Below are positions 7,676-62,058 of a stretch of 64,000 nucleotides of DNA, in pieces. Position 1 is the first letter of the stretch; every line of letters begins with the position of its first letter. A program made the translations under genes and the position numbers. The stretch lies in contig NC_091999.1 in the NCBI RefSeq assembly GCF_044704955.1, positions 25,792,001-25,856,000 on the forward strand, written 5' to 3'. The notes under the pieces are model-generated. The model did not search any database. It was given only the letters and a program-made list of their open reading frames with translations, and was not told the origin of the DNA. This DNA comes from Pristiophorus japonicus (Eukaryota).

Positions 7676-8035
7676 GAAGGTGTCCATCAGAACAAGGGAA
7701 ATGCTTTACCACTGGATTTATTGACGGTTCTGTTGGTGATTATCAATGGGATCGCTTCATGTCCCACCACACAGGTGTGAGAGGCGCCTCTGGCCCACTC
7801 CTCGGCTGCAATGGATAGCAGGCTGCACATGAAGAAGGAGCTGCCGCCGTTCTCCGCCATCACCTCGGTGTTCTTGTGGTTGCCGTAATCCACCAGTTTG
7901 TTATTGACGGTCTTTTTGACGAAGATTTTTCGGGGGGAGAACCTCTCACTAAGCAGGTGAGGCTGACCAACCTCTGAGCAGAGACTTCTGCTGAGGGCAG
8001 GAGGACAGACACGGCTGGTTCCCGCGGATCTTTCG
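7676..8035 (-). pseudogene. IGHM: IgM Cmu4 exon with truncated secretory tailpiece
   Basis: After a tacag acceptor it reads [31 protein letters not shown], frameshifts near 7940, then [58 protein letters not shown] tail remnant ISLVLMDT is cut by CR1. Closely resembles shark Cmu4. The internal G|GTAAAG donor for the TM form is present at 7710/7709. Confidence 0.92.
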
Positions 8036-8952
8036 CTGTAGAACAGTTACAACAAAGGCCAATGAACTGGATAGTTCCAGAGACAATGGGGGAATTTCAA
8101 CCCAATATAGCGGGCGGATTTTGGGCGTGGAGGTTGTTAAATTGGTAAAAATTTGAATCCCTACCTCAACTCGCCTATTTCCAGTTGTAATATTATATTT
8201 GAGTAATATATTTAAATGAGAATTGAATCCTCTATTTTAACCACCATTTGGTGTTTAACAGTCGCTGGTCCGGTTTGACACACTGTGTAAATCTCAGCAG
8301 TTACAGCAAGGTGGGGATTGCTGCTCCCAGGTGGTAATTGCCCTTAAACCTACCTCCTGGATCCAGGGTCCCTGCCTAACCCACCCCCCGCGATCCGCGA
8401 CCTCCTCACTCGGCTTCCAATCCTCCCGTTTTCACTGGTGGCCTGTGAGACCAACGCCCACAACTCGCCTTCCTCATTTAAATTCAGCCAATTTCCGGTG
8501 GTTAGATGTGAGAGAAATGGACACTGCATTGAATTTTAACACTTTTCCTTTTCCCCTCTGTTGCCTCTCTGGTTTTTCATCCCTTATCCCAGGGAACGTA
8601 TTCTTTCTCTCTGAAATCTTGAAGCATTGGACTGGAAAATGACAAAGAATTTAATGCACAGAACGAGGAGATTTGGCTAACTGGTCTATGCCGGTGTTTA
8701 TGATCCACACAAGCCTCCTGCGAGCCCACTTCATCTAAACCTAATAATATACCCTTCTATTTCTTTCTCGCTCATGGACTTATCCAGTTTCCCCTAAAAT
8801 ACACAATGTCAGGTCCCAGAGTGCTGCGTTGGTGGAATTACCAACCTGAATGATCAGAGTAGCCATTAAACACTTTATATCATCAATTGGCCCTTGCACA
8901 CGCATCGAAATTGTCGCAGTGTATCACTTATTGCAACAATCTCCCCGCTCAC

Positions 8953-9260
8953 CCTTTTCCTTGTGGATGGAATCTCTGAGAGGAGTCGGCATATCCTGAT
9001 GGCTCACCACGCAGTAGAACTTATCCCCACTCAGCCACTCTTGTGTCGAGATGTTTAAGTTGCTGATCACACTGTTGGGATCCTCTCCGTGTTGGACGGC
9101 AATCTCTGATTTCAAAGTCTCGTTTTTTCGGGTCCAGGTCACGGTGAGCCCATAAGGAGCGTCAGACACAACGCACGTTAAGGTCACCGTCGCCTCCAGT
9201 AAAACCTGTTCCAGTGACGGTGGGCGAAGAGTGATTTTTAATCGCTGCATGGGACATCCA
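8953..9260 (-). pseudogene. IGHM: IgM Cmu3 exon
   Basis: [25 protein letters not shown]...W...[28 protein letters not shown] with a ttcgcag acceptor and G|GTGAG donor. The phase-1 splice frame reads VDVPCSD then TAA, i.e. a 1-nt frameshift at the exon start. Confidence 0.93.
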
Positions 9261-9964
9261 CTGCGAAACAGGAATGAAAGTCAGGAAAAGCCGCATCTTC
9301 AGAATCAGGACACCAATAATTAGCCTTAACTCTTTCAAGGGGAATAACTCACTTTTGAGATATCAACCTCTCGCTATTGCTTGAACACCGTCGTTATGGA
9401 AGGACAATGAATTGGCAACGATTCCGGGAGGTCTGTAATATTTCCTGTGTATTTGAGCCAGAGCCACCTGTAATGGGCTGTGAAGCAAATACCTGGCGTA
9501 AAATGGGAATACATTGGGACGCAATTGTGATAGGCACTGAATAGCGCTCTTCCTGAAATCCCTTGCTCCTTTACGCCTGTCTATAGATTCTTGCACCCAA
9601 GTGCATCTCCACTGGTTATAATAGCTGAAGCCCGAATATCCCCAAGTTTAAGAGGTCTACACCAGCATTATACTGGTTCAAAACCAGTGTCAAATTAATT
9701 TCAGGATTTATGGGACAACAGGAAACAAAGTTAAGTTTCTAGTCTTTTGCTGCTATTTTTGTTGCGATGAAAATGTGCAGGAACCAGTCACATCCCCCGT
9801 CAGAGGAGAAGTGCAAGGTCCGGAGAATGGAGTTGCAAGGAATCTTTTGTGGTGGGGCATCATTTGTAATGATGTGAGGTAGTTTGTTAATATCTGTAAT
9901 TACTGAACATTTATCATGTCTGGTGAGAGAGATTCAGAAAGCACTATGACATCCGGGCATTAAT

Positions 9965-10480
9965 AGCAACATAGGAACAGGAGAAGGACATTCAGCCCAT
10001 CCATCCTGTCCCGCCATCCAGTTAGATCATGGCTGATCAACACTCAACACCATCTTCACGCCTTGGTTATGTAACCCATGATAACCTTGCCGAACAAAAA
10101 TCTATCAATTTCAGTTTTCAACTTTTCAATTGAAAGCAAGTTTCAGCAGCTTTTGGGGAGGGAAATCCAGACTTGCACTATTCTTCCTGTTAGAAAATCC
10201 TTTCTGACATCACCTCTGCACGGCCTAACTCTAATGTTAAGGTTCTGCTGCTTGTTCTGGACTCTCCCATCAAACTAAATAAATGTTTCTATATCTAGTC
10301 GATACAATTCCATTTATCAACTTAAACACGTCAATTGGACCATCTCTTAACGTTCTATTCTCACCACCTGATCATTTTACATTATTAGCCCCGGTATAAT
10401 TCGGGTAAACCTGCAGTTTAGCACCTCCACGTATATCCTTCCTCAGGTGCGGAGCCCAGAATTCGGCTCAGTACTCTGAA
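9965..10480 (-). mobile_element. Old CR1 3' fragment
   Basis: Begins with the reverse complement of the CR1 3' UTR (aacataggaacaggag...ttcagccc...gatcatggctgat). Confidence 0.65.
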
Positions 10481-10664
10481 TAGGGTAGATGCCCATTCTT
10501 GCAGTGGGTTCCTGGACAGTTAGCAGTGAAGGATTCCGGACTCCTATTGCCATTCCGTATATGATCAGCTAACTCAGGATATACCTGAGACTAATGACAC
10601 TTCACTCACTGCCTGACACCAGAGCAAGGGAAAGCTTCTTTTGCGAGGTTAATAAATCCTGAGC

Positions 10665-11098
10665 AATGAGGAATCCTGAACCAAAAGATCGTGGGTTGAA
10701 GTCCCACTCCAGATATTTGATCACAATATGTAAGCTGAGTCTCTCAGTGCAGTACTGGTGGCGTGGTGCATTTTCGGAGGTGCCGTATTTCGGATCATGT
10801 GTTAAACCAAGAATCCGTCTAGCCTCTCAGGTGGAGGTAAAAGTTCCCCTGGAATTATTTCAATGAAAAGCAGAGGAGTTCTCCCTGGTGGCCTGGGAAT
10901 ATTAATCCCTCAAGAAATAACACTAAAGAAAAAAAATGGTCGTTATCACACTGCTGTTTGTGGGAGCTAGTTGAGCACTAAATGACTGCCGCACTTTGTA
11001 CATTACAAATGTGACCACATTTCACAACTTAATTCAATGCCTGGCAAGCGCTTTGGTTCAGTCTGTGGTCGCTGAAGGCGCTGTATAAAGGCAAAATT
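10665..11098 (+). mobile_element. tRNA-derived SINE (SacSINE/DeuSINE-like)
   Basis: B-box-like gggttgaagtccc; central cattaca...gtgaccaca domain; 3' end aagcgctttgg...aaggcgctgtataaa. Confidence 0.55.
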
Positions 11099-11231
11099 TT
11101 ATCACAAGAATACACAAACTGCATGATTGGGAATTAGGAATATTCTTCTGCTTTCTACTAATTTCAATCAAAGTTCTGACTGAGATCAGCGCTCAGAATG
11201 GTCTGGAACCTCCCTGGATTGTGCCTCTTAC

Positions 11232-11550
11232 CCTGAGATCTGCTGAAGTTACGGCTTTGTGTGCCCCTTTCATGAGTGACCTGGCAGGTGTAGACCGAGC
11301 CGGTGAACCATTCCCTGTCGGGGAGTGTCAGACGACTGGCCGTCAAAACGTTTCCGTTCATCTAATAGGCGGGAGAGGTGATGAAGCCCTAATCCAGGAG
11401 TTGTCCACTCTTCAGCCAATTCACGGTCAGTGACTTTGGCCTTAATTCGATGATTGAACACATGGCGCTTGCATATCTGCTGCAGATGATTTGTTCAGTG
11501 GAGCTTAGCAAGATAAGAACAATTGGAGGAACGATGATCCGTTCAGGACG
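11232..11550 (-). pseudogene. IGHM: IgM Cmu2 exon (5' boundary approximate)
   Basis: PPIVLILLSSTEQI...[76 protein letters not shown]; stops at 11389-11391 and 11362-11364; G|GTAAG donor; no clear in-frame AG acceptor. Confidence 0.9.
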
Positions 11551-11704
11551 TTCACGAGAAGGCATTTTATTGACATTGCTTGCAAAATAAATGATTAAGA
11601 AAGGCAAAGTGTCCTTATATTTTAACAAGTTCTTTGCTGTCAGATCCACACTAACCTGGCATTTGCAGAGAGCAAAATTGTGCGCAGTATACTCAGTGTA
11701 ATAT

Positions 11705-11968
11705 GCAGACCAGAACTGTGCATAATATTGTAAGTGCGATATGGGGACCAGAACCATGCACAGTATTCTAAGTGTGATATGGAGAGCAGAGCTGTGCATA
11801 TTATTCTAAGTATGATATGGAGAACAGAACTTTACACAGTATTCTAAGTATGAGATGGAAACCAGAATTGTAAACAGGATCCTAAATGTGATAAGGAAAC
11901 TAGAACTGTGCACAGTATTCTAAGTATTATATGGAGACCAGAACTATGCACAGTACTCTAAGTATTGT
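11705..11968. repeat. 38-bp tandem repeat, about 7 copies
   Basis: Unit approximately CAGAACTGTGCACAGTATTCTAAGTGTGATATGGAGAC. Confidence 0.85.
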
Positions 11969-12043
11969 CTAACCAAGTTTCGATACAAATTGAACATAAC
12001 TTCTCACCTTATCACAGTTTGCCCTGTATCCCACATCATTAAC

Positions 12044-12342
12044 CTGACATTGTGATGTTCCACAGCGACCCACCACGTCGAACTTCGCAGCAGATTGTGC
12101 TGCTCCCCACCTCGGACTCGGTGATGGTTAACTGGCTGCTCAGGGTGTTGGTTCAATTCTTTTTGAGCAATGACGGGTAGGTCTTCAATCCAGTGGTGGT
12201 CGGCTCTTTATCTTCCTCCCAGAAAAGGCTGATGATGTCACGGGAGTCGCCCATCACCAAACAGCCCTACGTGATGGAGCCATCGGTGCTGGGTTGTTCA
12301 CAGGAGGAGAGCAGGGCGCAGAGGATGGGGGAGACGGTGTTA
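12044..12342 (-). pseudogene. IGHM: IgM Cmu1 exon
   Basis: TPSP, frameshift in a C5 run, then [92 protein letters not shown]. cccag acceptor and G|GT donor. Resembles shark Cmu1. Confidence 0.92.
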
Positions 12343-13079
12343 CTGGGAAGGAATGGCCCATTGAACAAGTTAGACTCTGTAATCCGTGCTTATAAAAGAA
12401 ATAAACAAATCGAAATTTGACTGCAGAATAAACTAATTCCACCATTTCTCCATCAAAGGCGACACGGGCATTTGAGCTTTGTCAGTTCTATCGTAAGCAC
12501 CTGTCAAGGCGCTGGTCAGGAACGCACCACTCTATCACCGAGCTCTATCACATTACACAACAAGAACCTTTACACAACTCGTCAATAAAGAAGCCTTCAT
12601 TGGATCATGCAATAGCAGAACAGAGACGTGTTCCTGTTATTTCGGCCTGCATTTATTTCTCAATGAGCACCATTTCTTGTCCTTTATTTAATTGCAGTTT
12701 GGGGAAATTTGCTCTGTGCACATTGCCTGTGGTGTATCCCTACAAAACAACAGTGACTGCACTTCAAAGGAGCAGCGGAATTCCTGCTTAGGACGTTAGC
12801 AAAATACCCTCCAAACTTGGCTACCACATAATTCAACAGGTAGCATTTCCATAGTCTAGTTTCTAAGATGCAAGTTGTAAATGAACCGTGATTGAGTCGA
12901 ATGTCTTCCTTATTTTCTCAGCATTTGAGTGAGAGCGATGTCCTTCAGCGCACTGTGATCTGAGCTCTATTCCATCCAATTATATGCATGTCTCTTGAGT
13001 AGCCTGCTTCCTGCCACTCAATTAATAATCCGAATAAAATACCATTCCAAAATCCGCTTAATTTGAAGTTTACTTCTTA

Positions 13080-14010
13080 AATGGCCCGTTTCAATTCCCA
13101 TTGTTGTTCTTGTTATATAACAATGACATGGACTTGGTTACAGGGAATACAATTTCGAAGTTCAAAAATGATACAAAACCTGGCAACGCAGCCAATAGTG
13201 AGCATGATAGCAGCAGACTCCATGAGGAGACAGATGGACCAGTGAAATAGGCTGGGACATGGCAATTGCAATTAAATGCGAATCATTGAGAAGCGATGCA
13301 CATTGGGTGGAAGTTGGAGAGGCAGTATTATCTAAATAGTATTGTTTTGAGGGGATGCACGAATAGAGAGATCTGGATGTACATATTCACAAATCTTTGA
13401 AGAGGGCAGGGCAAACTGGTAAGGCTGTTAGGAAAGCGTATGGGATACTTGACTTTGTAAATGGGGCATTGACTACAAAAACAAGGCGGTTATGCTAAGC
13501 TTACAGATCACGTGTTAGGCCTCAGCTGGACTATTGCGTACAATTTTGTCACCACAATGTAGGAAGGATGTCAAGCACTTGGGGAGCGTAGAGGGGAGAC
13601 TTTTACCTGGATGATGCCAGGGATGGGGTCTTCAGTTATGTGGAGAGATTGGAGAAGCTAGAATATTCTCCTTAGAGCAGAGGTTAAGAGGAGACCTAAG
13701 AGAGATATTCAACATTATGTCAGGTTTTGATATACCAAGTCGGGAGAAATTGTTCCGCTGGAAAGTAGGTGGGTAACCAAATGTCGCCGTTTTAAAATAA
13801 TTGTGAAAAGATCAGAAGGTGAAATTAAGGTGTTTTTTTCACACAGAGGGTTGGTAATTTCAGGAATGCACAAGGCAGTATCTCCAGTACGTCAGGAGGA
13901 CTCATTTGCACGTTTACAATGTAAACTCTGGGGAGTTGGACTAAATTGGACAGCCTTTCAGAGCCGGCACAGGCACGATGCCTGAATGGCCTCTTCCAAT
14001 GCTGTGAGAT
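13080..14010 (+). mobile_element. Decayed CR1 RT/3' fragment in the J-C intron
   Basis: Remnants of ISKF.DDTKL, RPQLDYCVQF and the gaatggcctc 3' UTR. Confidence 0.7.
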
Positions 14011-14744
14011 GCTATCAGTCTACACGAGTGAGTGGGAACAGTTCTTCTAGATTTCATGGAAGGAAACACTTCATATTTTGGACACCTATACCAGATCTAT
14101 TTTTATTGTTCGTTATAATAAAAGAGGATATTTAAAATAAAGGGATCTTATAAATCTGACGCAAATTAGTCAATCACATGCTGTTAGAAAGGCTTAAATT
14201 CATTGCGAATGATGACTTATTGCAGGTTGACTCTCTCTCTTTAAATGTTTCACAGAATTGCAGCTCAGTGACTGTGTGCCTTGTGTTGTGACCCAGGCCA
14301 ATAGCTGCATCTCGTCACAGTTTGTCCCTGCCTTTAACCTTCTCAGGAAGAATTGGACAACATAATTTTTCTAAACATGAGGTCCCCATGACGGTTATTT
14401 GAAATGGGAGTCTCGATATTCTCTATTTTAATTGTGGAAATAACTTGTAACCTCCCATCAGATCAGAACAGGCGCTGCTTTCTGGAGCGTTATTCACTTC
14501 CTGAACCTGTTTGTTCTGAAAGTGAGCTGAAGATCAGGCCAATCATGTTCATTAGTAATCTGATGCTCAAAATGTTCAAACATTAATAACTCATTAAAAA
14601 TTGGGCATTTTTTCAGAAAGAATATAAACATCAAAGAATGTGCGCTTTTTAATCTGGGCAATGGGACGAATTATTGTATATATCTGGCACGAGCAGTTTA
14701 TCTGCTATCTGTTCGTCGCAGATAACGATGCCTAGAACACTGCC

Positions 14745-15255
14745 TGACCAAGCACTCTCAGGTCAGATACAGCACGGATAAGAGAGCAAAGCTCCCGCTA
14801 TGCTGCCGTGTGGGTCAGGACAGGTATAGCAAGTGTTGCACACAGAGTAATATGTTATCTATACTATCTCGTCAAACATTCCCAGCTCAAGTACTGCAGA
14901 GATGTGCTACGAAATGTCTTCCCTTAAAATGCGTTATCAAATTGACCGATTAATTAAGCACAATTATGACGAGTACAATGAAAAGCTTCCAATACACTGT
15001 CCCATTAAAGCGCACCACCCCTCCAAAGCTCTGATTAAATAGAAGATCATTCTATATTGAAGGACCCAATTAAGTTCCACGTCCTTGTAAAGAAAAGGTT
15101 AAAGACTGATTAAAGCTATCTCTGCAATGTCCCATCAAGCATTGCCAGATAAGATAACGCACGGGTTAGTTGCAGAGTAAAGCTGTCATATCAAACACTG
15201 TCAGGGCAGGTACAACCGGGTTAGAAACTGATTAAAGCTCCTTCGACTGTCTCCC
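14745..15255. repeat. Degenerate tandem repeat of about 65 bp (cccatcaaacactcccagggcaggtacagcacggg...gagtaaagctc family)
   Basis: Recurrent aaagct / cccat / caggtaca motifs; same family as 28055-28402. Confidence 0.6.
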
Positions 15256-18200
15256 CGTGGTGTTTCAGAACTGCTCCTTCTGACTGTCACAATCTGGATT
15301 ACTGATCTCATCTCTACGGCGACTCCTCAACCTTAAAGTCAATCTTTCCCGTTTCTCACATATACCAGTTTCTTAAATAACTAAATTAAGTGACACTCCC
15401 CGCAATACAGGATCACAACCCAGAAGGTTTACAACCCGTCAGGAGGACTCCTGATTCTCACCCAGTGAGCAGGCGCACAGAAACAGAACAGACACAAACG
15501 GTGCAACAAGGGTGCTCTAGGCAGAGAGAGACCAGTTCAATCTGTTAATTTCAATGAAGCTGTTTGATTTCTAGTTTATTTCTTGTCAATTTCCAACCAC
15601 CTCAACGCTGCAGATTCTTTGAAATTAATCTGATATTAATTTGAGAGACTCTTCAACATCCAGCCATTTCCCCATCTCTGTCAACTATCTTGTAAACCGT
15701 GTAAAGATTAACTTCCCTGAAAGCAAGTATCTGCAAATAATTCATATTCCACGGGAATTTTCTGCCCGTCACACGGGTCTCGGTGACAGAGAAAGAATGT
15801 CACAATCCAGGAGACATATCCAGTGATACCTAATCACCCACTGATTTTATATGTTTTCGTCAGTAAATATAACCTGTAAAATCATCGTGGCAAAACAGGA
15901 AATTAATTCACTAAAATCTGCAGCGACACCTTGTCGAACTCAGCACAGCCGAGTTATCAATGCATTGTTTTCTAAATTAATTTATGAATGAATTAAACAT
16001 TATCTCCAACGCATGAAATTTTGCAATAATTGTAATACTGACCAGTATGCAACACAATTGTAAGGGCTCGCTTATGTTTTAATGAATTAGCACTGATGTT
16101 ACATTCTAATTTAATGTTCATGTTAGCTGAATATTGAAAATAATCTGAGTGCCAGTCTGGCCCTTCCGCCTCAGAAGCATACCTACCTGGAACTTTTGAA
16201 ATTAAATTAATGTGCTTGAATTTCAGCCATACAAATACAAGTAATTATTAATAATTCTAAAACCTTTTCTGCCTGATAACTTGTGATATATTATGGTTTA
16301 CTTAACTTACCATAACAATTAATCAATATTAAAATATTAAGCAGCATATTAATACATAACTACTCAGAAATATACCTTATTTTTACTTAAATGGAATCAA
16401 ACTTGAATAATTGACAATAATCACGCAGTTCAACTATTGTCCCGCTCTCGACCGACACCTTTTTAAAATCTGCATTTTTCTAATATAGCATAAACTGCGT
16501 CTATTCGCAGAGAACATTTCACATGATGGATTTGGGGGTGGACTAATTTAAATAGTTCTCTGTCCAGCCGGGGTCACAACTCCGATGGGCTGTAAACCGC
16601 TTGTTTACTAATGCTGGAATCTCGAGCTGAAATATTCTCCTCAATCTTAAACCCCAAAAATGGTTTTATTAATTAAAATCCATCCTTGCAGTTTGCAGTC
16701 AGTAGCAGAGCCTCCGCTACTTAATAACACAGACAATCTTTTAACGTTCATAGAAACATAGAAAATAGCTGCAGGAGTAGGCCATTCGGCCCTTCGCGCC
16801 TGCACCGCCATTCAATGAGTTCATGGCTGAACACTCCAGTTATTCACAAAATGCCCGTAAGTTAATGATTAAATATATTCTGCTACTTCTTGAAAATAGT
16901 TTCCAGAATGGTCAGTGTAAAACTAGAGGAGAACAATTCATTCAGACCATCTGGGGCACTGAAACTGAATGAGCAAATGGAGGAGAGACATTGTTCATCA
17001 ATTTAATATTAATACGAATTAAACATAGCTCTCAGATATGATTTGTGCTTTGTCTACCGTTCTATTCCGCATACAGCAGCGTTTTGGGAGATAGGATTTT
17101 GTTTGAAATTTAAAATGAGATGAACCTTTTGTAAGTAAATTAATCTGCTTGAATTTCAATGGATTATTTGCTGTCTCCAGCCATACGCAGTCGGAACCTG
17201 CCTTGAATTTCAATATAATTACATGAACAATTCTTTGACTGCCAGCGACGCCTGTCTCTCAGCTTTTGTTCTTGCAAAGTGTTCAAGATTAACTTAGTGA
17301 TAATTCTATCAAACAACACACAATATTGATTCAATAACAAATTTCTGCTACACAGTGAGAATGTCATACCCCGGCAGATAGATTAAATTGACAAAATGGA
17401 ATTTGCAACACGGCTTTAAGTTATAATTAATTGCACTCAGTCATTCATCTGTGTAAACAGGAGGTAGCAAGTAATTGAACTCCCGACTCAAACTGAACAC
17501 AGCGGTGGAATCAGTATGTTGTTAATGAAATAATTGCAGGCATAATTAATAACTGTATCCAGCCTCTAAAAGTTTCTGCTTCCCTTAATGGTGCCCAGTG
17601 TAGAGCAGGATTTTTGAAGGCGAATAATATTAAGTAAATGAACATTGGACTTATAGCATATTTGAATAACATTCAGAGATATTATTGCATTATAATCGGT
17701 TGGTTAATAGTAATTTAATCCAACTACAACCTGAATAAGTTAATTATGTAGATGGCAACTAGTTACATTTCACATATTAATATACCAGCATCGTCAACAT
17801 AGATTAATAGTTGAATATATAATTATCACTTCAATAATTGTGATGTTAAAATACCTTTCAATAATTTCTGATGTCTAAACCCGTCCTGTTCTTTGCCTAC
17901 CGACTGTTTTCAAACAGTTTCAAAATACATATCGTGTTTGGATTCGATCAGAAACCTGCTGCTGTCACCGATATTAAACATTGTAGAAACGCCAAACAGT
18001 TTCACAAATTCTAGGTATTCTGAGTAACACAGGCACAAACTCTCCTCAGCAGATCAACACTAAATCACATCGCTGAGGGGCGGAATCCCTCGACAGAACC
18101 TTTCATGGAGCAGATCCGTAATTCTATAAACCCTTTCAGCAGAATCAAATGTATCATTGCAAAAAATCTCATTACACAATCACCAAACCCGCCTAACACT

Positions 18201-18889: not shown

Positions 18890-18939
18890 CTGCAGTCACC
18901 GTCACCATGGTTCCTTGTCCCCAGTAGCCAATTGCGTAA
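18890..18939 (-). pseudogene. IGHJ: IgH JH segment, probably germline-fused to D2 (D2J)
   Basis: Reads YAIGYWGQGTMVTVTA (WGxG motif); the splice donor is mutated (GCAG|ATAAGG instead of GTAAGG). Confidence 0.92.
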
Positions 18940-18967
18940 CAGAGTGAGACACGTTGTGTCAAATACT
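18940..18967 (+). other. 12-bp-spacer RSS 5' of the D2/JH segment (degenerate)
   Basis: Heptamer CAGAGTG (18940-18946), 12-nt spacer, nonamer TCAAATACT (18959-18967, 6/9 match to ACAAAAACC). No nonamer-like sequence at 22/23-nt spacing. Confidence 0.65.
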
Positions 18968-19285
18968 CCGGCGGACTGTTAACTGTAAAATACAGAGATT
19001 AAATTCCACCCAGCTCTAAAAACCCGATTCCGACTATCGTAAGAGTGAATCAGCGAGATATTTCATTTTGTACCGTTCATTATATTTAAAAAATGATTGG
19101 AATACTTCTGAAGCATCTGTGCATGTTCAACATGGCAATCAATAGTAATAAAGAAGAAAACAGTTATACATTTAAATATATATATATATATATAACTTAT
19201 TTCTAATTATTTTTATTTAAGCCTCAGTTCCTTCGACGCTCCTGGCGTGGTAATGGTCGCAGGTATGAGCAAACTCCCTGTCTGG

Positions 19286-19323
19286 GGTTTTTGTATGTAG
19301 AGCTCGCTCTGTATTGCACCGTG
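19286..19323 (-). other. 22-bp-spacer RSS 3' of the fused VH-D1
   Basis: CACGGTG + CAATACAGAGCGAGCTCTACAT (22 nt) + perfect nonamer ACAAAAACC. Confidence 0.95.
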
Positions 19324-19343
19324 ACCCACTCCCGTAGTCCTTC
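19324..19343 (-). other. D1-like sequence plus junctional nucleotides fused to VH
   Basis: About 20 extra nt (GAAGGACTACGGGAGTGGGT) lie between TGTGCAAG and the heptamer; the G-rich ACTAC...AGTGGGT core resembles shark IgM D1 as I recall it. Confidence 0.75.
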
Positions 19344-19643
19344 CTTGCACAGTAATAGATGGCGGTGTCTTCGCTCCTCATGTTCTTCATGTCCAACGTG
19401 AAGATGTTGTTTGAAGTGTCTTTGGACGCAGTAAATCGGCTCTCAATCCCTGGGACGTCATTGTTGCTCGCTGGAGTGTAGTAGTAAACCAGCCACTCCA
19501 GCTCCTGTGCGGGAACCTTGCGGACCCAGTTCATGCCATAGCCGCTAAGATCGAACCCGCTGGTTTACAGGTCAGTCTCAGGGAGCCTCAGGAAATCCTG
19601 GTCTTTGCCTCGGGCTGAGTCAACACCACATCCGACTGGACAC
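19344..19643 (-). pseudogene. IGHV: IgM-type VH exon
   Basis: [26 protein letters not shown], 1-nt deletion, [73 protein letters not shown]; TGA at 19588-19590; tttacag acceptor. Confidence 0.95.
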
Positions 19644-19771
19644 CTGTAAAAATAATCAAAATACCCCGAGGATCAATCCTCGAGAAATGATTCCTGACTC
19701 TGTAAAATTCCATAGAGAGACTATCACTGAGACAGTAACAATGAGAGAATTGGACAATAAAAACTACTCAC

Positions 19772-19817
19772 GGGAAAGTAAAGCCAGCAACAGAACGAAA
19801 GCAATCGCCGACCTCAT
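19772..19817 (-). pseudogene. IGHV: VH leader exon
   Basis: MRSAIAFVLLLALLS plus 1 nt, then a GTGAGT donor; 128-bp intron to the V exon. Confidence 0.93.
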
Positions 19818-51322: not shown

Positions 51323-52685
51323 TTAACAATGGCCTAGAAATCCCAGTCGAAGTCTTCCCGAAGGCGATGGACTAAAAAATGTTAAAAGTTGCACAACTAC
51401 CTGCAATTGCTGCGACTACCATCAATTCAGGCCTAAGGCCTCCACGCTGTGCAGCAGAGGCGTGCACGTCTCAACGTCCATAAGCTTGAGCTGGAATCAC
51501 ATGGCCCTGGGCAGCCAATCAAGGTACAATATTTTCTCATTTAAAAAACGGGAACTCCATAAGTTGGATTTCCGGTTATTTTGATTGAGAAACACACCCG
51601 CCAAACATCAAAACAAAAAGAAAAAAAAGAAAAAATACACTACATTTTTTATATTTATTTAAATTTAAGCTATTTTTGTCCAATAAAAAAATCTTTCCAA
51701 TTTAAAAAAAAGTTTTTTTTATTTCCGGTTTAAAATAAACTTACCTCAGTGGGCAGGGTTTTAACAAAAAATGTATTTTAAATTTTATTTTGCTATGAGT
51801 TTCATGATTTAAAACTCTTATGCCTATAAAAGAAGGCTTTGCGCCTGCTTTTATCAGCTTCAAGTTTTCAGGACATTTGCAATCTTGCCCATGCGAATGT
51901 GCTGGCTGCTGAGATGTGGAGGATCTGTCAAGTTGGAGCTTGACAGATGGGAAAAGCCGGCTTTCAACCATGCACATTGTGCACAGAGCACATTGTACCA
52001 AGTGAACAGTAATAAATGACGCTGTCAGACACCTGGCAATATTGAATGTTTAAAGGAACCGTTCCTGTGGCATTGTCTAATGTAACTACAGCAGACACTT
52101 CCCAAAGGCAGTTACATTATTTCTAGATCGAGCTTTGCAGTATTTATTGCGGATTTGCCTCTGGCTGCTGAATGCATGAGAAAAAATGAAGAGTGAGGAG
52201 GTGATGTCGGATAATTACACTTCAAAGTGAAACTTTGCCCGTCACCCAAGGTGTTACTCGGTGGGTCCTGAAACACGGACACTATTTCCTCACTGGACTA
52301 GATAAGGAGCATTAGCAAGTAAAAGGCATCATGTTATCAGATTAAACAACACTCAAGCAATGGAGGCTGGACCCACACGTGCAATTTCATAAATGCCAGT
52401 AACACATACACACAGCTCAATGCATTGCGCAAAGCCCACCCTCAGTGTAAACAGGAGAGCAACTGGAAACAAATACCTGAATGGCACCTCGGGAACAGAT
52501 CTCTGCAAACCATAAGTGGAAAACAAAGCTTCTAGCACATACTGACAGGTGCTGATGGGTTTTATAACATTGTCAACCTTTCATTGTCCATTCAAAAAAA
52601 CAGGACGAATCAGCGTCAGAAGACAGGATTGAAATCATGATACTGAGTTTGGAGTGAAGATCTTTATCAAGAAACACAATCATGA

Positions 52686-52686
52686 A

Positions 52687-52719
<33 letters not shown>

Positions 52720-52950
52720 TTACATTGCTCTCTGTCTCTCATTATCTCTGTATCAGTCTCTCTATCTATGTACCTTTCTCTTTCTCTCTATCTCTCTCTC
52801 TTTCCATCTCTCTATCTTTCTCTGTATCTCTGTATCAGTCTATCTATCTATGTATCTCTCTCGCTCTCTCTTTCTTTATCTCTTTTCCTCGCTCCCTGTA
52901 CCGCTTGCTCAATCGCTGTATCTCTCAACCTCTTTGTATCATTGTCTCTG
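52686..52950. repeat. (TC)n-rich low-complexity tract
   Basis: Direct reading. Confidence 0.9.
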
Positions 52951-53874
52951 TTGGTGTAGAAGGAAAACTTCTCTTACTCAAGGTGGACTCCCTCATGTAA
53001 GGAATCGACACCCACCCGCCCGTATAGCGACCACAGAATCACTCAGACGAAACTTCGTTTCAACTGGTTTGTATTCAAGCATGCAGGGGAAGTTTTCATG
53101 GATGGACCTTCCCAGAACAGAGGTTTTGCAAATACACTTCTACAATTTTAGAGGTGTGCGCCCCTCTTAAAAAAAACATCGATTGGCATACTGCTATCAA
53201 CGAACTTACATTGATGTGTCGACCCTTGTCAGACTGGCTCTGAGTAGTGCTTCCCCACCTCTCCATCTTGCATCACATGTCACCCTTCTGGAATGTGTTA
53301 TTCTGTGGTGTCAAATTTGCCTCAATTCCTCATGAAGTGTGAATTGAAATTGCTTCCCAGGATTTGCTATCTTGTTCCCAAATACATACTTTCTTATCCT
53401 GTGCCCAAGAGAATTCTAGTGAAAATGTTCGAGTTCCCTTAAGAATCTCATGAGATTGAGATGCTGTCCAATCTTGTTTCAAACTGTTAATTCTCCACTG
53501 ACTTTGATGGATGTGTTATTCTGTACTGAATGTATGTTTCCCTCAGTCTTTATTAAGGTTAACACAACGAATGGTTCATCACGCTTTACTGTGAAGCATA
53601 ATTTGCTGTTTCCGTGACTGAAAACCCATAAAAAGCGAGAGTATAAGCGTGCTGTACATACATAAGTGAGTTTTTCATACAACCGGTCAATTTAATATAT
53701 ATTATAATCCCTACCGTAAGACAGAGGAACTCCTGATTCCTCAGAACCTCCTAATACTGATAAGGCCTACAATCTAGACCATGTGTTAGATCAATTCACT
53801 ACCTTCAGTAGCCACTTTAATGACCATCTGTCCGTCTGTCCACTCCCACTTTAGTGATGGTATTTTATCCCCTT

Positions 53875-56800
53875 AAAGTCTCTCTTTATCTCTCTCGATT
53901 TCTTTACCTCTGTATAATTTGTATCTATCTATATATATATATATGTCTATACATATCTGTATTTCTGACAGTCTGACTTTCTCTCTATCTCTCCCTTTAA
54001 CTCTCGCTCTCCCTTTCTCTTTCTCTCTGTTTCTCTGAATCACTCTGTATCTCTTTATCCCTGTGTCTGTCTTATGCNNNNNNNNNNNNNNNNNNNNNNN
54101 NNNNNNNNNNNNNNNNNNNNNNNNNNNNNNNNNNNNNNNNNNNNNNNNNNNNNNNNNNNNNNNNNNNNNNNNNNNNNNNNNNNNNNNNNNNNNNNNNNNN
54201 NNNNNNNNNNNNNNNNNNNNNNNNNNNNNNNNNNATCTCTCTATCTATATACCTCTTTGTATCTCTGTCTCTCCCCATAGCGGTCTCTCTATCTCTCTAT
54301 CTCGCTCAGTATCTCATAAGCCCTGCTTTACCCTGTGCCTGATTTTCTCAATGTCTCTCTATCAGTTTAACCCCTGTTTTCTCCCTATTTCTGAATTATC
54401 AGTGTCTATCTATCTGATCACGCCCTGTTTTTTTCACTCCTGACTTTCTCACTGTCTCTCTGTCTCTCTGTCTGATTACCCCTTGTCTCATTCGCTCTCT
54501 CTGACTGTCTCAGTGTCTGTCGATCTGATTACCTCCTGTTTCACTCCCTCTGTCTGATTATCTCAGTGTCTCTCTATCTGCTTACCCTACGTTGCTCTCT
54601 TTCTGACTGTCCCAGTATTTATTTATCTGATTAACCCCTCTCTCTTTCCCCGTCTATGTGTTTCAATGTCTATCCATCTNNNNNNNNNNNNNNNNNNNNN
54701 NNNNNNNNNNNNNNNNNNNNNNNNNNNNNNNNNNNNNNNNNNNNNNNNNNNNNNNNNNNNNNNNNNNNNNNNNNNNNNNNNNNNNNNNNNNNNNNNNNNN
54801 NNNNNNNNNNNNNNNNNATCTGTGATCTCTCTGTTTCAGACTACATCAGTGTATATCGATCAGATTACCCGTATTTCTCTCTCACTGTCTGTTGCCTCAT
54901 TGTCTTCCTATCTGACGAATTCCTGTTATCTCTCTGTCTGACAGCCTCTGTCTCTCTTTCTGTCTGATTACCCCCTATTTCTCTCTCTGTCTGTCTGTCA
55001 AAATGTATCTCTATCTGAATAATACCTGCTTCTCCCTCTCTGTCTGACTGTCTCACTGTCTCCATCTGATTACCCCTGTTTCTCTATCTTCCTGAGTGTA
55101 TCGAAATTTCTTTATCTGATTACCCCTGTTCTCTCTATCTCTCTGCCTGATTGTCTCAATGTATCTCTATTCGATTAACGTCTGCTTCTGTCTCGTAGTA
55201 ACTGATTGTCTGAGTCTCACTCTATCTAATTTACCCCTGTTTCTCTCTCTGTAATTCGGTCTCAGTATCTCTCTATATGATTAACGTTGTTTGTCTTTCG
55301 GTCTTTCTGTCTCAGAGTCTCCATATCTGATCAGTGCCTGATTTTATCTCCCTGACTGTGCCGTTTCATTCCATCTGATTAATCTGTTTTTCTCTTTGTG
55401 TCTGACACTATCAGTGTCCCTATCTAAATACTCCATCCTTCTCTCTCTGTGTGTCTGTTACCTCAGTACCTCACTTTCTCATTATCCCCTGTTTCTCTCT
55501 CTGTCTGTCTGTCAAAATATCATTCTATCTGAATATTACCTGCTTCACCCTCTCTGTCTGACTGTCTCACTGCCTCTATCTGATTACCTCCTGTTTCTCT
55601 ATCCTCCTGACTGTAGCGAAATGTATTTGTCTGATTTCCCCTGTTCTCCCTCTCTCTGTCTGATTATCTCAATATCTCTATTCGATTAACCCCTGGTTCT
55701 GTCTCGTAGTATCTGATTCTCTCAGTGTCACTATCTAATTTACCGCTGTTCGTCTGTCTACCTGTCTCTCTCAGTATATCTATGTATGATTAACACTGTT
55801 TGTCTTCCGGTCTTTTTGTCTCAGAGTCTCACAATCTGATCACTCCCTGATTTTATCTCTGTCTGTCGCAGTTTCACTCCATTTGATTCATCTGTTTTTC
55901 TCTCTGTGTCTGACAGTCTCAGCGTCTTTTCTGAATACTCCCTCCTTCTCTCTCTCTGTGTCTGTTACCACAGTACCTATCTTTCTGATTGACCATTTTT
56001 CTCTCTCTCTCTGTCAAAATATCTCTCTATCTGAATATTACCTGCTTCTCCCTCTCGGCCTGACTCACTGTCTCACTATCTGATTAACCCCTGTTTCTCT
56101 CTCTATGTGTCTGACTGTCTCGGTGTTTCTCTATACAATTAACGCCTCCTTCTGTCATTAATGTCATACGAGAAGAGACAAGATCAACTGGGCCTTTATT
56201 CACTGGACTTTAGGAGGATGGGAGGGGATCTCATAGAAACGTATAAGATTTTGACGGGACTGTACAGCTAAGATGCAGGAAGAATGTTCCCAATGTTGGG
56301 GAAGACCAGAACCAGGGGACGTAGTCTTAGGATAACGGGTAAGCCATTTAGGAGAAACTTCTTCACTCAGAGAGTTATTAAACGATGGAATTCCCTGCCG
56401 CAGAGAGTTGTTGATGCCAGTTCATTGGATATATTCAACAGGGAGTTCGATATGGCCCTTCCGGCTAAGGGGATCAAGGGGTATGGATAGAAAGCAGGAA
56501 AAGGATACTGAGGGAATGATCAGTCATAATCGTATTGAATGGCGGTGCAGGCTCGAAGGGCCGAATGGCCTAATCTTGCAACTATTTTCTATATTTCTAT
56601 GATTGGCTGTAAACCTATCTAATTTACTACTGTGTCTCTCTGTGTCTGTCTGTCTCAGTATTTCTCTATTTGATTATCCCTGTTTATCATTCGGTCTCAC
56701 AGTGTCAGAGTCTCTCTAACTGATTACTCCGTGCTTCACGCTGTTTGACTGTCTCAGTTACAATCCATCTGATTAACCCGTTTTTCTCTCTCTGTCTGTA

Positions 56801-57670
56801 TCTCAGAGTCTCTCTCTATGTCTGCCATTCCCAGTGTATANNNNNNNNNNNNNNNNNNNNNNNNNNNNNNNNNNNNNNNNNNNNNNNNNNNNNNNNNNNN
56901 NNNNNNNNNNNNNNNNNNNNNNNNNNNNNNNNNNNNNNNNNNNNNNNNNNNNNNNNNNNNNNNNNNNNNNNNNNNNNNNNNNNNNNNNNNNNNNNNNNNN
57001 NNNNNNNNNNNNNNNNNNNNNNNNNNNNNNNNNNNNNNNNNNNNNNNNNNNNNNNTCTACCTGAATACATCCTGCGTCTCTCTCGCTCTCTGTCCGACTG
57101 TGTCTCAGTGAGATTCTATATGATTGCCCCTTGTTTCTATATCTGTATGACTGTCGCAGTATATCTCTATCTCATTACTCCCTGCTTCTCACTCTCTGTC
57201 TGGCTATTTCAGTGTCTCCCTATCTGATTAATATTTGCGAATGGCTCTCTGAATCTAACTGCCTCAGCGTGTCTCTATCTGATTACTCCTCCCTCTCTCT
57301 ATCTCTGTCTGATTGTCACATTGTTGCCCTCTCTGATTAGTCCCTGTTCTCTGTGTGTCTGACTATGTCAATGTCTCTCGCTCTATGATTACACCCTGTT
57401 ACTGTCTGTGCCTGACTGTTTCAGTTTCTCTCTGTATGATCACCCACTGTTTCAGTCTCACTGTCAGATTACCTCAATGTCTTATTATCTGACTACGCCT
57501 GATCTTCTCCCTGTCTGACTGTCTCCGTGTCTCTCTATCTGATCACTCCTGTTTTTCTCCCTGTCTGACTCTCAGTGTCTCTCTATCTAAATACCTATCG
57601 TTTTCCCTCTACTTCTGAATGTCGCAGTATTTCTCTATCTGATTTCCCATTGCTTCTCTCTCTCTCCGTA
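53875..57670. repeat. Degenerate TC-rich satellite (tctgattacccctgtttctctctctgtctgactgtctcagtgtctctcta-like units) with three gaps and a CR1 insertion
   Basis: Recurrent tctgatta / ctgtctcag motifs; N gaps at 54078-54234, 54680-54817 and 56841-57055. Confidence 0.85.
56163..56601 (+). mobile_element. CR1 3' fragment
   Basis: MFPMLGKTRTRGRSLRI...FTQRV..WNSLPQ; ttttctatatttctatg tail. Confidence 0.9.
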
Positions 57671-57689
57671 TGCCTCCTCTAATTCGTTA

Positions 57690-58675
57690 GGTAGTATCAA
57701 ATTACAAATGTCAGTATCCAAGTACTCAATAATGTGCTCCTGAGTCTGCTTTGTAGCTCCACTGTGGCCTGATGGGGTTGCATTAATATTTCTCCTATAT
57801 TGATGGAGGCTGCATCTATCATGACCAGTTCTGAGGCAGTTAAATGGTCGCGCACTCTTTGTGATGAAGTTCAGATTCTACAGGATGTACTGTGGGGTTT
57901 ACTATAAGGAATCCATTTCAGTTCTACCAGGCATTTGGCCATCGGTCGTTAAGGCTGAGGGGAGATCGTTGAGGGGCTTTGGTAGTGCCCCAAAATGGCC
58001 TTCTACATTTAAGACGGGTTGGTAGCAGATTGTTCAATTCTGCCTGGATCAGCATATTTTTGTATCAGCATGTATTTTCTGGAGAATAATTATTTGCGAC
58101 GTGTGTGTGGTAGTGCAATGTTTGTAAGCACGGGGAGCCAAGGTGTTGGTGTCGATAAAAGCGTACCGGTGATTATTCTCATAGTAGAATTCAGCTGGAC
58201 ATCAACGGATTTAACAACCGAAATTGATATCCAAGCCGGAAAGCGGAACTCCACTGCAGAGTAAACCAGTGCGAGTGCTGTAGTACGGGGGGAGGGGGAG
58301 GGCTTGAGGGTCTGATCCTCATGTGGTTCCGGCGAGTTTCTCGATCATGTTCATTCTACTCTTCAGTTTCTTGCCAAGGCACTGGAGATGTTGTCTATAT
58401 GACAGCGTGTGATCCAGCCTGAATCCTAAATAGGAGGGTTTTTTTTGGCATCGTTTATTGCTATTCCACATAAGGAGCCTTTCAAAGCTTGGTATGCTTG
58501 ATGGGTGTGAAGGTGGAATGCCGAGGTGACAATCTTTTCCGGGTTTGGCCGGAGATGCCATCGGCAGAAGTAGGTTTCCATCGTCTTGTAGGAGTTAGTT
58601 TTTCAATGTCCTGTATCTGCTCTTCTGGGTGCCAGGGTAAACAGGGGAGCTTCGGATTCGAAGCACGGAGTTACA
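57690..58675 (-). mobile_element. Vingi/Ingi-like non-LTR retrotransposon 3' fragment
   Basis: YLGFRLDHTLSYRQHL...KLKSRMNMIEKLAGTT, then RTTALALVYSAVEF and QLNSTMRIITGTLLSTPTPWLPVLTNIA. Confidence 0.7.
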
Positions 58676-59719
58676 CAAGAACATAAGAAATAGCAACAGG
58701 AGGAGGCCACCTGGCCCCACAAGCCTACTCCACAATATATAAGATCATGGTTGATTTGATCATGGACTCAGTTCCCTGCCTGCTCCCCCTGACCCTTTTA
58801 TTTCCTTATCGATCAAAAATCTGTCAAATTCTGTGTTAAATGTGTTCATAATCATCATCATCATAGGCAGTCCCTTGGAATCGAGAAAGACTTGCTTCCA
58901 CTCCGGAAGTGAGTTCTTTGGTGGCTGAACAGTCCATACGAGAGCCTGTGTAGCTGTCCAGTCCGCTAGCTTTTAGTGATTGCTGTACTCGGACAACGAA
59001 ATTTTTAGGGCTCAAAATGTTCTTTGTTCCTGGGAGGTGAATGACTACAGCGAGGTTTTACTAGCCAATCCCCAGGCGCCTTGAGTGTATTAGCAGAGAA
59101 GCAGGTTAAGTGAGGAACAGATTCCCTACAATGAAAGATATTATTCAACCAATTGTGGTTTTTAACAACCATCCGTCAGCTTTCATCCTACTTTCCTTTT
59201 GGCAACTCACATATTTTCAGCTGTATTTTACATCAGTTTCACGGCTTGGGGAGCTTCGAACTTACGAACTGCGAGTTACTGGTCTAGTACTCTTACTGCT
59301 GGGCTGGTTGTTCCACTGTAAGGTTGATATCTGTAGAGCAAGATGGCCCATTATAGAAATCATATTAAAGTTGGAAGCTTTAACTACTGATATGGACAAA
59401 GACGAACCTAGCAATTGTAACTGCATTTATGATTGGAGACTTGAGATTTCGATTGAAGCTAATAAGTTTACGCGATCTAATCGAGTTTTTGTTGTAAAGT
59501 AGCTTTACTGGAGAGAAGATGAAAAGACTGATTCCTCTGCTTGTGGGAATCGGTAAAGAAAGATCATAAAATTCAAAATATTAACAAGAGAGTGACAGAA
59601 GCTCAGAAAAATATATGCATGGACGCGAGCGTGGGAGTTGTTGGAGCATGGGACATTTTGCCACAAATAGTGTTTGAGGCAGAGAACATTACGCCTTAAA
59701 AAAGTTGCAGCGGTATTTT

Positions 59720-60150
59720 CGTTATGTTACTCAATTTGTAATCCAGAGGCCTGGGCGAAGCAGTTTATTGCACGAATTAAAATGGTACCTGCGTAGTTTG
59801 GGAATTTAAATTCCGATTTTTAAAAAATAAATGAGACGCTGGTATCAGAAAAAGTGACCATAAAGTGATCGGCTTTGGCAAAAACCCCAACGGGTACACT
59901 AATGTCACGTCAGGGAAAGAAATCAGCCGTCCTTACCCCAAAAGTGACTCCAGTCCCATACTCAACGTAATTTAGCTCTTTGAAATGGCCCTGCATGCCC
60001 CCCAGTTGTATCAAACGCTTGAAAGGAGCAGAACTGCAGTGGTTCGAAAAGCAGATGGCTCACCAGCAATTTCTCAAGGGGAAACCAAGGGATGGGCAAT
60101 AAATGCTGACATGCCAGTGAAATCCATATCCCTATAATTAATAACGAAAG
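59720..60150 (+). mobile_element. Degenerate SINE (HE1-like)
   Basis: gtaatccagaggcct head; tcaccagcaatttctcaaggg...gatgggcaataaatgctg 3' end. Confidence 0.45.
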
Positions 60151-61373
60151 GAAAGGTTTAAGATGCAGTTGCATTAATTTCAGACTGTTGAAACCGACAA
60201 CCCTCCACGACCTGTCTGCTCCTTCAATTCTGGCCACTTGTGCAATCCCAATTTAATCGCTCCAAAATTAGCCGCCGTGTCTTCACCTGCCTCGGCCCTA
60301 AACTTTGGAATTCCACCCCTAAATATCTGCCCTAATATCTCCGTATGTAGCTAGGTGGCAAATGTTATAAGAACACAAGAAATAGAAGCAGGATTAGGCC
60401 ACCTGGCTCCTTGAGCCTGTTGCGTCATTCAACAAGATCATGGCTGATCGGATCATGGACTCAGCTCCACTTCCCTGCGCTCTCCCCATGACCATTTATT
60501 CCCTTATCGCTCAAAAATCTGTCCATGTTGCCTCGTTAACAGGGTCAATTTGTAAAGCGAGAGCAGTGAAGGAAACAATTAATGTTGTTCTGGCAGCTGT
60601 GCGGGAGCTTCCCATTAAAGGAGCTGTTTGCTGACCATTACCACTAAGCATAGCCGATAAAAGGGGGATGTAGACGGGAAGCGAGCCATGAAGGATTTGA
60701 ACACAATGATGTGGTAAATTAAAAGAACTCCTTTAACCTCAATAAAATGGAGAGTCACTGGCAGGTTTGAGCAGAATGCGATGGCACGAACACCAAGAGG
60801 TAAATCATAATACAAAAGCAAAATACTGCGGATGATAGAATCTGACATAAAAAATAAAATGCTGGAAATCTCAGAGGGCCAGGCAGCATCTGTGGAGAGA
60901 GAAACAGAGTTGACCTTTCAGGTAGATGAACCTTCATCAGAACTGGCGATTGTTCCGAATGAAAAGATTCTTATGGAGCACTGAAAGGGGGAGGGGAAGA
61001 AAGAATAAAAGAGAAAATAGGTAAATCATATTGCGTCTGAAGAATTTTCAGCATCAGTCCTAAGCTGACCTTTCATAGTTTGAACTTGCGTCCTCAGGTT
61101 CTACTTCCGCGGTTTCATTTAAAGTAATAATCAGAGTTAACTTTTTTATGCACTTCGCGATCTTGAAAACCTGTTGGAGTAATTGCAGTCTGGAATTCGG
61201 GTGATGGTTGGAACAGCGCTAGTGTCCAATTATTTCATCATTCAGCTGCGAAACTAATCATTACAACGCCGTTACTGAGCAGTGAAACACGTTGCAGACG
61301 CCGCAGCATGAATTAACACTTTTGTCTGCATCTGATGATAATTTCAAAGAAAGGAGGAAGGGATCATTGGGTG

Positions 61374-61374
61374 A

Positions 61375-61423
<49 letters not shown>

Positions 61424-61424
61424 G
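61374..61424. repeat. (GA)n microsatellite
   Basis: About 20 GA units. Confidence 0.95.
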
Positions 61425-61581
61425 AAAGACTGTGTATTTAGATATCTGCCGGTCTATCTAGTTAGTTATCTACCCAGCTATATATTATCGAGCGTTTTCG
61501 TTTTATTGTTTGATTTCTATTGTAACATCCCAATGCCGGGTCTCAGAGCTGATTCAGTGAGAGGTAATTAAATTCCATTGC

Positions 61582-61620
61582 TTGTTTTGTACGGACTGAC
61601 TGCGCCCGTGTAGCAGTGTG
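61582..61620 (-). other. 23-bp-spacer RSS of the TCR V segment
   Basis: CACACTG + CTACACGGGCGCAGTCAGTCCGT (23 nt) + ACAAAACAA. Confidence 0.88.
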
Positions 61621-61927
61621 GGGGTCAGCGCAGAGTGATGCACGGCAGATTCAGAGACAAGAGCCCCGGATATATTTAAAGGAACTGTTTACTAGTCTTG
61701 GTCCAAAGCAGCAGAAAACCGTCCTGGGAAATCAGGAGAATGATCCCTATTACCCTTGCCGTATCTGTTCAGTAAATATCTCGGAGCTTCCCCGGGATAC
61801 TGGACATACCAGAAGAGAATTGGGGCAGTGTACGCTGCTGAGTAATTACCGTTCAGTTTTAAGGTCTGACCCTCCTGAATCATTACTTCAGACGGATGCT
61901 GGGACACTGAATCTTCGCCACTCCTTC
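61621..61927 (-). pseudogene. T-cell receptor alpha/delta-type V exon
   Basis: EDSVSQHPSEVMIQEGQTLKLNGNYSAAYTAPILFWYVQYPGEAPRYLLNRYGKGNRDHSPDFPGRFSAALDQD**TVPLNISGALVSESAVHHSALTP. Both canonical Cys lost; tandem TAG TAA; no frameshift; ttccag acceptor. Confidence 0.87.
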
Positions 61928-62012
61928 CTGGAACAAAATACAGAATGTGTTAAAAGTCTGATAGTAAATATAACCCATGGAACACAAACTGACCCTTTAA
62001 ACATAGACTCAC

Positions 62013-62058
62013 CGGGCAGCATGGCAATTATTATCAGTAGTGAAGATGGGGAACACAT
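62013..62058 (-). pseudogene. TCR V leader exon
   Basis: MCSPSSLLIIIAMLP plus 1 nt, then a GTGAGT donor; 85-bp intron. Confidence 0.87.

What the first reader, a model, noticed from the sequence alone, without database searches (positions are those of the whole stretch)
7676..62058. IgM heavy-chain cluster co-oriented with, and about 42 kb downstream of, a TCR alpha/delta V segment
Seen: a TCR-type leader-V-23RSS (61582-62058) and an IgM VD-DJ-Cmu1-4 cluster, both on the minus strand. Established: sharks rearrange IgH V segments to TCR delta D/J/C, and IgH-type V genes or pseudo-clusters have been reported at the shark TCR alpha/delta locus. Inference: this is a B/T hybrid neighbourhood with 12/23-compatible signals both ways. 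VH-D1-22RSS could join a downstream TCR delta 12-RSS D or J. Upstream TCR V-23RSS segments could join the 12-RSS D2J by deletion, giving TCR-V/Cmu chimeras, a route that only exists because germline joining exposed a 12-RSS in front of JH. Both copies here are dead, so this would be a fossil of such a system; four N gaps lie between them.
Basis: partly seen in the sequence, partly recalled or inferred. Interest (0 to 1): 0.75.

Follow-up and report, generated by a model that had tools for sequence, protein, structure and literature searches.

The report
Dead TCR V hitchhiking with IgM
A broken shark T-cell-receptor V gene, likely copied long ago from the main T-cell-receptor array, and a broken, half pre-joined IgM antibody gene sit 42 kb apart in a block repeated at least 13 times in this genome, so the pair is most likely a duplication passenger in the already described shark antibody/T-cell-receptor region rather than the fossil of a hybrid receptor.

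Summary
In detail: a TCR alpha/delta V pseudogene with 23-RSS and an IgM V-D1(22)...(12)J-Cmu1-4 pseudocluster lie co-oriented 41.8 kb apart, and a gap-free 99.5-99.8% paralogue is collinear across all four N stretches. TCR-delta-type D/J/C and TRAJ arrays are on the same contig, but 16 Mb away. The hybrid-fossil reading is weak. The V belongs to a 12-kb-plus block collinear with the TRAV array, sitting just 3' of a different, V-less Cmu in 15 of 15 copies. All 15 V copies share two stops and loss of the second cysteine; all 26 IgM copies have a frameshifted V. Both were likely dead before amplification. Here the JH heptamer and splice donor are also broken. The route is not unique to germline joining, since canonical clusters offer 12-RSS D segments. 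TCR V exons between shark IgH clusters and VD1-D2J clusters are both in print. The scan found the same things on other DNA of this genome. Open point: 29 of 29 JH found on this contig carry a 12-RSS, and intact sister clusters exist.

The parts
62013..62058 (-). TCR alpha/delta V leader exon
   Evidence: ATG and GT donor read directly
61621..61927 (-). TCR alpha/delta V exon, pseudogene (TAG TAA in FR3, both cysteines lost)
   Evidence: 63% aa to intact paralogue L016; best single-domain PDB hits TCR alpha V; tree; lesions
61582..61620 (-). 23-RSS, heptamer CACACTG, degenerate nonamer
   Evidence: RSS scan; 15 copies at 92-100% and a 68% homologue in the TRAV array in the same tandem position
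52003..52279 (-). third, heavily decayed TCR V remnant, no RSS found
   Evidence: tblastn E 3e-5, sequence
19772..19817 (-). IgM VH leader exon
19324..19643 (-). VH (stop and frameshift) germline-joined to D1 (19340-19324)
   Evidence: split paralogues show the same D1 free between 12- and 22-RSS; lesions
19286..19323 (-). 22-RSS of D1, near consensus
18968..19285 (-). D1-D2 intersegment
   Evidence: 79-80% identity to the D1-D2 interval of canonical cluster L120, not to its D2-J interval
18940..18967 (-). 12-RSS derived from the 5' signal of D2; heptamer broken (CAGAGTG read from J)
18890..18939 (-). JH (with at most 2-4 nt of D2), splice donor GT->AT
12044..12388 (-). Cmu1 exon with stops
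11232..11578 (-). Cmu2 exon with stops (5' edge approximate)
8953..9260 (-). Cmu3 exon, open
7676..8035 (-). Cmu4 exon with frameshift and a truncated secretory tail

Best explanation
[quoted passage not shown] Shown: the V lies in a block of at least 12 kb collinear with the main TRAV array 14 Mb away; the block starts just 3' of the TM exon of another, V-less Cmu remnant; the IgM has V joined to D1, and JH carries the 12-RSS of D2. Inferred: an old duplication moved the TRAV block into the IgH zone, where it decayed; separately, germline joining (likely RAG) removed D2 in the ancestor of this IgM family and later joined V to D1; then the Cmu remnant, TRAV block and dead VD1-J cluster were amplified as one unit. 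The co-orientation and 12/23 match are a by-product and likely do nothing in this copy.
For: 15 copies of the V at 92-100% (40 of 88 candidates scored). 13 of 15 have a window-type IgM cluster 32-58 kb downstream in the same orientation, and V and IgM distances correlate over those 13 units (rho 0.55, Mantel p 0.007). 15 of 15 have the upstream Cmu-TM segment 9-22 kb before them. 13 of 26 window-type IgM copies have no such V within 100 kb. 15 of 15 V copies share TAG TAA and the second Cys->Ser, 14 of 15 Cys23->Gly; 26 of 26 IgM copies have a frameshifted V. Window 61.5-73.3 kb (with the upstream flank) is collinear at 65-75% with C23:11.429-11.441 Mb. TRD-type D is 16.07 Mb away. The JH heptamer is broken in 9 of the 13 paired copies. 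PMC12227049 section 6 already reports TCR alpha/delta-type V exons between IgH clusters.
Against: Shared lesions date the death before amplification but do not exclude an older working ancestor of the pair. 4 of the 13 paired IgM copies keep an intact JH heptamer. Two other displaced TRAV copies (L185, L186) have open frames, both cysteines and a perfect nonamer. The donor block is only 65-75% identical, so it is the closest among the four regions fetched, not a proven source. Copy lists are lower bounds (40 candidates scored per search).
Confidence: 0.8

Rival explanations
1. The pair is the fossil of a once-working hybrid unit in which TCR V segments joined by deletion to the 12-RSS JH and were spliced to Cmu.
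For: Geometry is 12/23-legal and deletional; 13 of 15 V copies keep the partner; two further V remnants face the same way.
Against: Lesions are shared by all copies; the V is tied more tightly to the upstream Cmu (15 of 15); a VH with its own 22-RSS sits 390 nt from the JH signal; no germline TRAV-JH join was found by exact pattern although germline joins are common in this family (weak because exact); canonical clusters would allow the same chimera through D2.
Confidence: 0.07
2. The IgM family, not this copy, serves as a V donor to TCR delta: intact V-23 or VD1-22 sister clusters join in cis over megabases to TRD D/J, and the dead copy is only a relic of that family.
For: Ig V to TCR delta D-J-C chimeras are reported in sharks (passages of PMC5931798, PMC6795676, PMC12227049). 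TRD-type D(12/23) and two J(12) are on the same contig. 9 VD1-J and 9 split V-D1-J clusters have open V frames. This is compatible with the best explanation.
Against: It does not need or explain the orphon TCR V; the window's own VH is dead; no transcript was examined.
Confidence: 0.1
3. The adjacency is an assembly artefact at one of the N stretches.
For: Four N stretches lie between the two genes; the region is rich in near-identical duplicates.
Against: A paralogue with no N aligns at 99.5-99.8% on one diagonal (shifts of 3-64 nt) across all four; 9 further copies keep a 42-46 kb spacing.
Confidence: 0.03

Closest known systems
Elasmobranch antigen-receptor complex (AgRC), Flajnik et al. 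2025, PMC12227049 (outline, passages and section 6 read)
   Same: IgM miniclusters on the TCR alpha/delta chromosome, with TCR alpha/delta-type V exons lying between IgH clusters
   Different: Different species as far as can be told; here the source block, shared lesions and co-amplification with the IgM cluster are resolved
Germline partly joined IgM clusters VD1-D2J / VD-DJ of horned shark and little skate (passages of PMC2193153 and PMC5192425)
   Same: V joined to D1, D1-D2 interval kept, D2 5' 12-RSS in front of JH
   Different: Almost no D2 coding sequence remains (0 extra nt in sister types L047 and L064, 2 here), so a hybrid joint or a heptamer-to-heptamer deletion fits as well as a D2-J coding joint
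Shark IgHV-TCR delta trans-rearrangements and TAILV (second-hand from PMC12227049, PMC5931798, PMC6795676; primary papers not held, details recalled)
   Same: Linked IgH V and TCR delta D/J with compatible signals
   Different: Those use intact IgH V with TCR D-J-C; the window holds dead genes 16 Mb from TRD, and the reverse chimera (TCR V-JH-Cmu) is not described in what I read
Orphon V pseudogenes of Ig/TCR loci (recalled)
   Same: V with RSS displaced from its D-J-C by duplication and decayed
   Different: Stays on the same chromosome, among IgH clusters

Membership tests
TCR alpha/delta V segment | Split leader, V exon, 23-RSS | tested here: met
TCR alpha/delta V segment | Groups with V genes of the array upstream of TRD/TRAJ, not with VH | tested here: met
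   76-81% nt to V genes at C23:10.0-11.7 Mb; FastTree clade support 0.94 with L016-L020, VH apart at 1.0, 37 sequences
TCR alpha/delta V segment | Not a light-chain V | tested here: inconclusive
   No shark light-chain V in the tree; best single-domain PDB hits are TCR alpha and the DNA is collinear with the TRAV array
TCR alpha/delta V segment | Functional: open frame and both cysteines | tested here: not met
Shark IgM minicluster | V-D-J followed by four Cmu exons | tested here: met
Shark IgM minicluster | Secretory tail and TM exons; open frames | tested here: not met
   Tail truncated, no TM hit within about 37 kb downstream, stops in V, Cmu1, Cmu2
Germline-joined VD1-D2J cluster | V-D1 coding joint relative to split paralogues | tested here: met
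Germline-joined VD1-D2J cluster | Remaining interval is D1-D2 and the signal before JH is that of D2 | tested here: met
Germline-joined VD1-D2J cluster | D2 coding nucleotides kept at the D2-J joint | tested here: inconclusive
   Only 2 nt beyond the 14-nt native J head; canonical D2 starts GTAC
Germline-joined VD1-D2J cluster | Join is inherited, not somatic | tested here: met
   Same junction in 25 of 26 copies up to point changes, one base shorter in L046
Ig/TCR hybrid rearranging unit | 12/23-compatible, co-oriented signals | tested here: met
Ig/TCR hybrid rearranging unit | Cleavable RSS on both partners | tested here: not met
   JH heptamer CAGAGTG; need for CAC is recalled knowledge
Ig/TCR hybrid rearranging unit | TCR D-J-C close by | tested here: not met
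   Same contig and strand but 16.07 Mb away
Ig/TCR hybrid rearranging unit | Chimeric transcripts | not testable with these tools
   No RNA holder listed

The most novel reading that the evidence does not exclude
The IgM family that fills this TCR alpha/delta chromosome has been converted in the germline to the TCR delta signal layout (V23-12D22-12J; 29 of 29 JH found on C23 have a 12-RSS, while two-D clusters were found only on other contigs). With intact sister clusters and open-frame displaced TRAV genes on the same contig, B/T chimeras could form both ways, including TRAV-JH-Cmu and TRD D-to-JH joins; the second is illegal with a canonical 23-RSS JH.
Probability: 0.12. Interest if true: 0.6.

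Novelty: new member of a known kind. Interest (0 to 1): 0.2.

Why it matters
As it stands it is a worked example of how TCR V exons end up between shark IgH clusters: by an old block copy followed by recent co-amplification of dead DNA. It warns against reading co-orientation and 12/23 compatibility as function. If TCR V-JH-Cmu transcripts were found from intact sister copies, it would be the mirror image of the known IgHV-TCR delta chains and would bear on how separate B and T receptor loci were in early jawed vertebrates.

Tried and rejected
Mis-join at an N stretch: rejected. Native JH with 23-RSS in the window family: rejected, best nonamer match is at spacer 12. Exact-pattern searches of the own genome for germline TRAV-JH and VH-TCR J joins found 0; weak because exact, and the V-end motifs cover only some families. 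The first pattern for canonical 23-RSS JH found 0 because the nonamer differs; some searches found such clusters. No RNA holder listed. A protein search with an intact TRAV paralogue gave 3 uninformative names. TRAC was not located in C23:9.54-9.58 Mb; the TRD C exon is named from position and layout, its PDB hits being only weak Ig C matches. No VH was found in 50 kb upstream or 30 kb downstream of the window. No JH or VH lies within about 40 kb downstream of the open-frame orphan TRAVs L185 and L186. Deiss 2019, Criscitiello 2010 and Ott 2021 are not held, so TAILV details are recalled. Searches for a reverse chimera or this duplication in print gave nothing relevant; the library lacks most subscription papers. 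PMC2193156 and PMC2435157 passages added only background. No supplements were read; table S1 of PMC12227049 may list comparable V exons.
Full report
Observation. The window is G000:C23:25,792,001-25,856,000. On the minus strand there is a leader (ATG 62058), a V exon (61927-61621) and a 23-spacer signal ending at 61582. The V is 63% identical in protein to an intact paralogue, its best single-domain PDB matches are TCR alpha V, and in a 37-sequence FastTree tree it falls with V genes of the array at C23:10.0-11.7 Mb (support 0.94), apart from VH (no light-chain V included). It carries TAG TAA in FR3 and has lost both cysteines. 41,765 nt downstream is an IgM cluster: leader, VH with a stop and a frameshift, D1 with a 22-RSS, a 12-RSS, JH and Cmu1-4. 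Cmu3 matches shark mu chains at 61-74% (10 hits among 79 candidates). The JH heptamer reads CAGAGTG, the J donor is AT, the secretory tail is cut, and no TM exon was found in about 37 kb downstream. Two more TCR V remnants lie at about 63.0 and 52.1 kb.

Contiguity. A paralogue at C23:29.65-29.71 Mb has no N and aligns at 99.5-99.8% on one diagonal across all four N stretches. The adjacency is real.

The IgM joins. Of 66 loci given to, 62 were parsed: 26 window-type VD1-J copies (all with frameshifted V), 9 VD1-J copies of a second junction with open V, 9 split V-D1-J clusters with open V, and 18 V-D1J clusters; 4 were not parsed. The split clusters show D1 free between a 12- and a 22-RSS, which proves the V-D1 join. 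Canonical V23-12D1(22)-12D2(12)-23J clusters exist on other contigs: L120 and 9 of 11 loci fetched for the purpose. The window's interval between its two signals matches the canonical D1-D2 interval (79-80% over 108 and 150 nt) and not the D2-J interval, so the 12-RSS is that of D2. Little D2 is left: native J heads are 14 nt, two sister types have exactly 14 nt after the heptamer, and the window type has 16. A trimmed D2-J coding joint, a hybrid joint (discussed for sharks in PMC2193153) or a deletion between identical heptamers all fit; I could not separate them. Of the 41 JH matches, 30 were fetched: 29 of 29 on C23 have a 12-RSS and the one on C27 a 23-RSS. The 12-RSS JH is thus a family trait, not special to this copy.

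Where the TCR locus is. 14 of 14 matches to a TCR J pattern lie at C23:9.58-9.73 Mb, minus strand. A D with 12/23 signals is at 9,737,184-203, two J at 9,729,118 and 9,727,658, and a C exon near 9,722,500; the name TRD is inferred from layout. The window's VD1 signal is 16.07 Mb from that D. A VH-like pseudogene with a 23-RSS lies 9 kb upstream of the D, which is the nearer parallel to TAILV (recalled).

Where the V came from. Window 61.5-73.3 kb (using the upstream flank) is collinear at 65-75% with C23:11.429-11.441 Mb, including the tandem V pair (four candidate regions compared). The block begins just 3' of the TM exon of a V-less Cmu remnant upstream of the window. There are 15 copies of the V at 92-100%. 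15 of 15 follow a copy of that Cmu-TM segment; 13 of 15 precede a window-type IgM cluster at 32-58 kb, and 13 of 26 such clusters have no V copy within 100 kb. Divergences of V and IgM flanks correlate across the 13 units (rho 0.55, Mantel p 0.007), as expected for one duplicated block. All 15 V copies share both stops and the second Cys->Ser. The simplest reading is that both genes were dead before amplification (inferred).

The hybrid idea. The geometry is 12/23-legal, but in this copy and 9 of the 13 paired copies the JH heptamer has lost CAC, which should block RAG cleavage (recalled). Canonical clusters also expose 12-RSS on D1 and D2, so germline joining does not create the TCR V-to-Cmu route; it only shortens it. 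Exact patterns for germline TRAV-JH or VH-TCR J joins found none (weak). Against my reading: 4 paired copies keep the heptamer, 18 sister clusters with a 12-RSS JH have open V frames, and two displaced TRAV genes have open frames (L185, L186), though both lie 3' of dead Cmu exons with no JH in about 40 kb downstream. Shared lesions do not exclude a much older working ancestor. No transcripts were examined.

Known context. [quoted passage not shown] VD1-D2J and VD-DJ germline clusters are named in passages of PMC2193153 and PMC5192425. Ig V-TCR delta chimeras are stated in passages of PMC5931798 and PMC6795676; the primary papers were not held. Searches showed no report of TCR V-JH-Cmu chains in sharks, within a library that lacks most subscription journals. 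Earlier notes of this scan on other DNA of this genome reach the same readings; they are not independent evidence.

Verdict. Real, ordinary for the shark antigen-receptor region: a passenger TCR V pseudogene co-amplified with a pre-joined IgM pseudogene (confidence 0.8). Interest 0.2. The open question is whether the intact 12-RSS-JH family makes chimeras with TCR segments (probability 0.12, interest 0.6 if so).

Noticed in passing
G000:C23:9,746,507-9,746,776 (L134), minus: VH-like pseudogene (57% aa to the IgM VH family) with a 23-RSS, 9 kb upstream of the TRD-type D; resembles TAILV as recalled
   Followed up: no
window 62963-63163 and 52003-52279, minus: Two further TCR V remnants; the first is cut off by a tandem repeat array at about 63170-63600
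   Followed up: partly
G000:C23:25,868,100-25,878,600 (L162, L163), minus: V-less IgM constant remnant (Cmu2-4, secretory tail, TM), about 60% aa to the window's Cmu3, directly 5' of the TRAV block
   Followed up: partly
L185 (C23:37.27 Mb) and L186 (C23:19.62 Mb): Displaced TRAV genes with open leader and V frames, both cysteines, heptamer CACATTA and perfect nonamer, each 3' of dead Cmu exons
   Followed up: partly
C23 IgM loci L021-L086 versus C27, C90, C1478 and others (L120, L173-L183): Two VH families: the one on the TCR contig lacks a free D2 in all 62 parsed loci; the other has canonical two-D clusters plus D1D2- and DJ-joined forms
   Followed up: partly
L047 and L064 types: D2-derived 12-RSS abuts a full-length 14-nt J head with no D2 base, the pattern expected of a germline hybrid joint or heptamer-to-heptamer deletion
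   Followed up: partly
G000:C645:1,012,200-1,037,200 (L180, L188): An IgH V-DJ cluster of the other VH family and a frameshifted TRAV lie 24 kb apart on an unplaced contig
   Followed up: no
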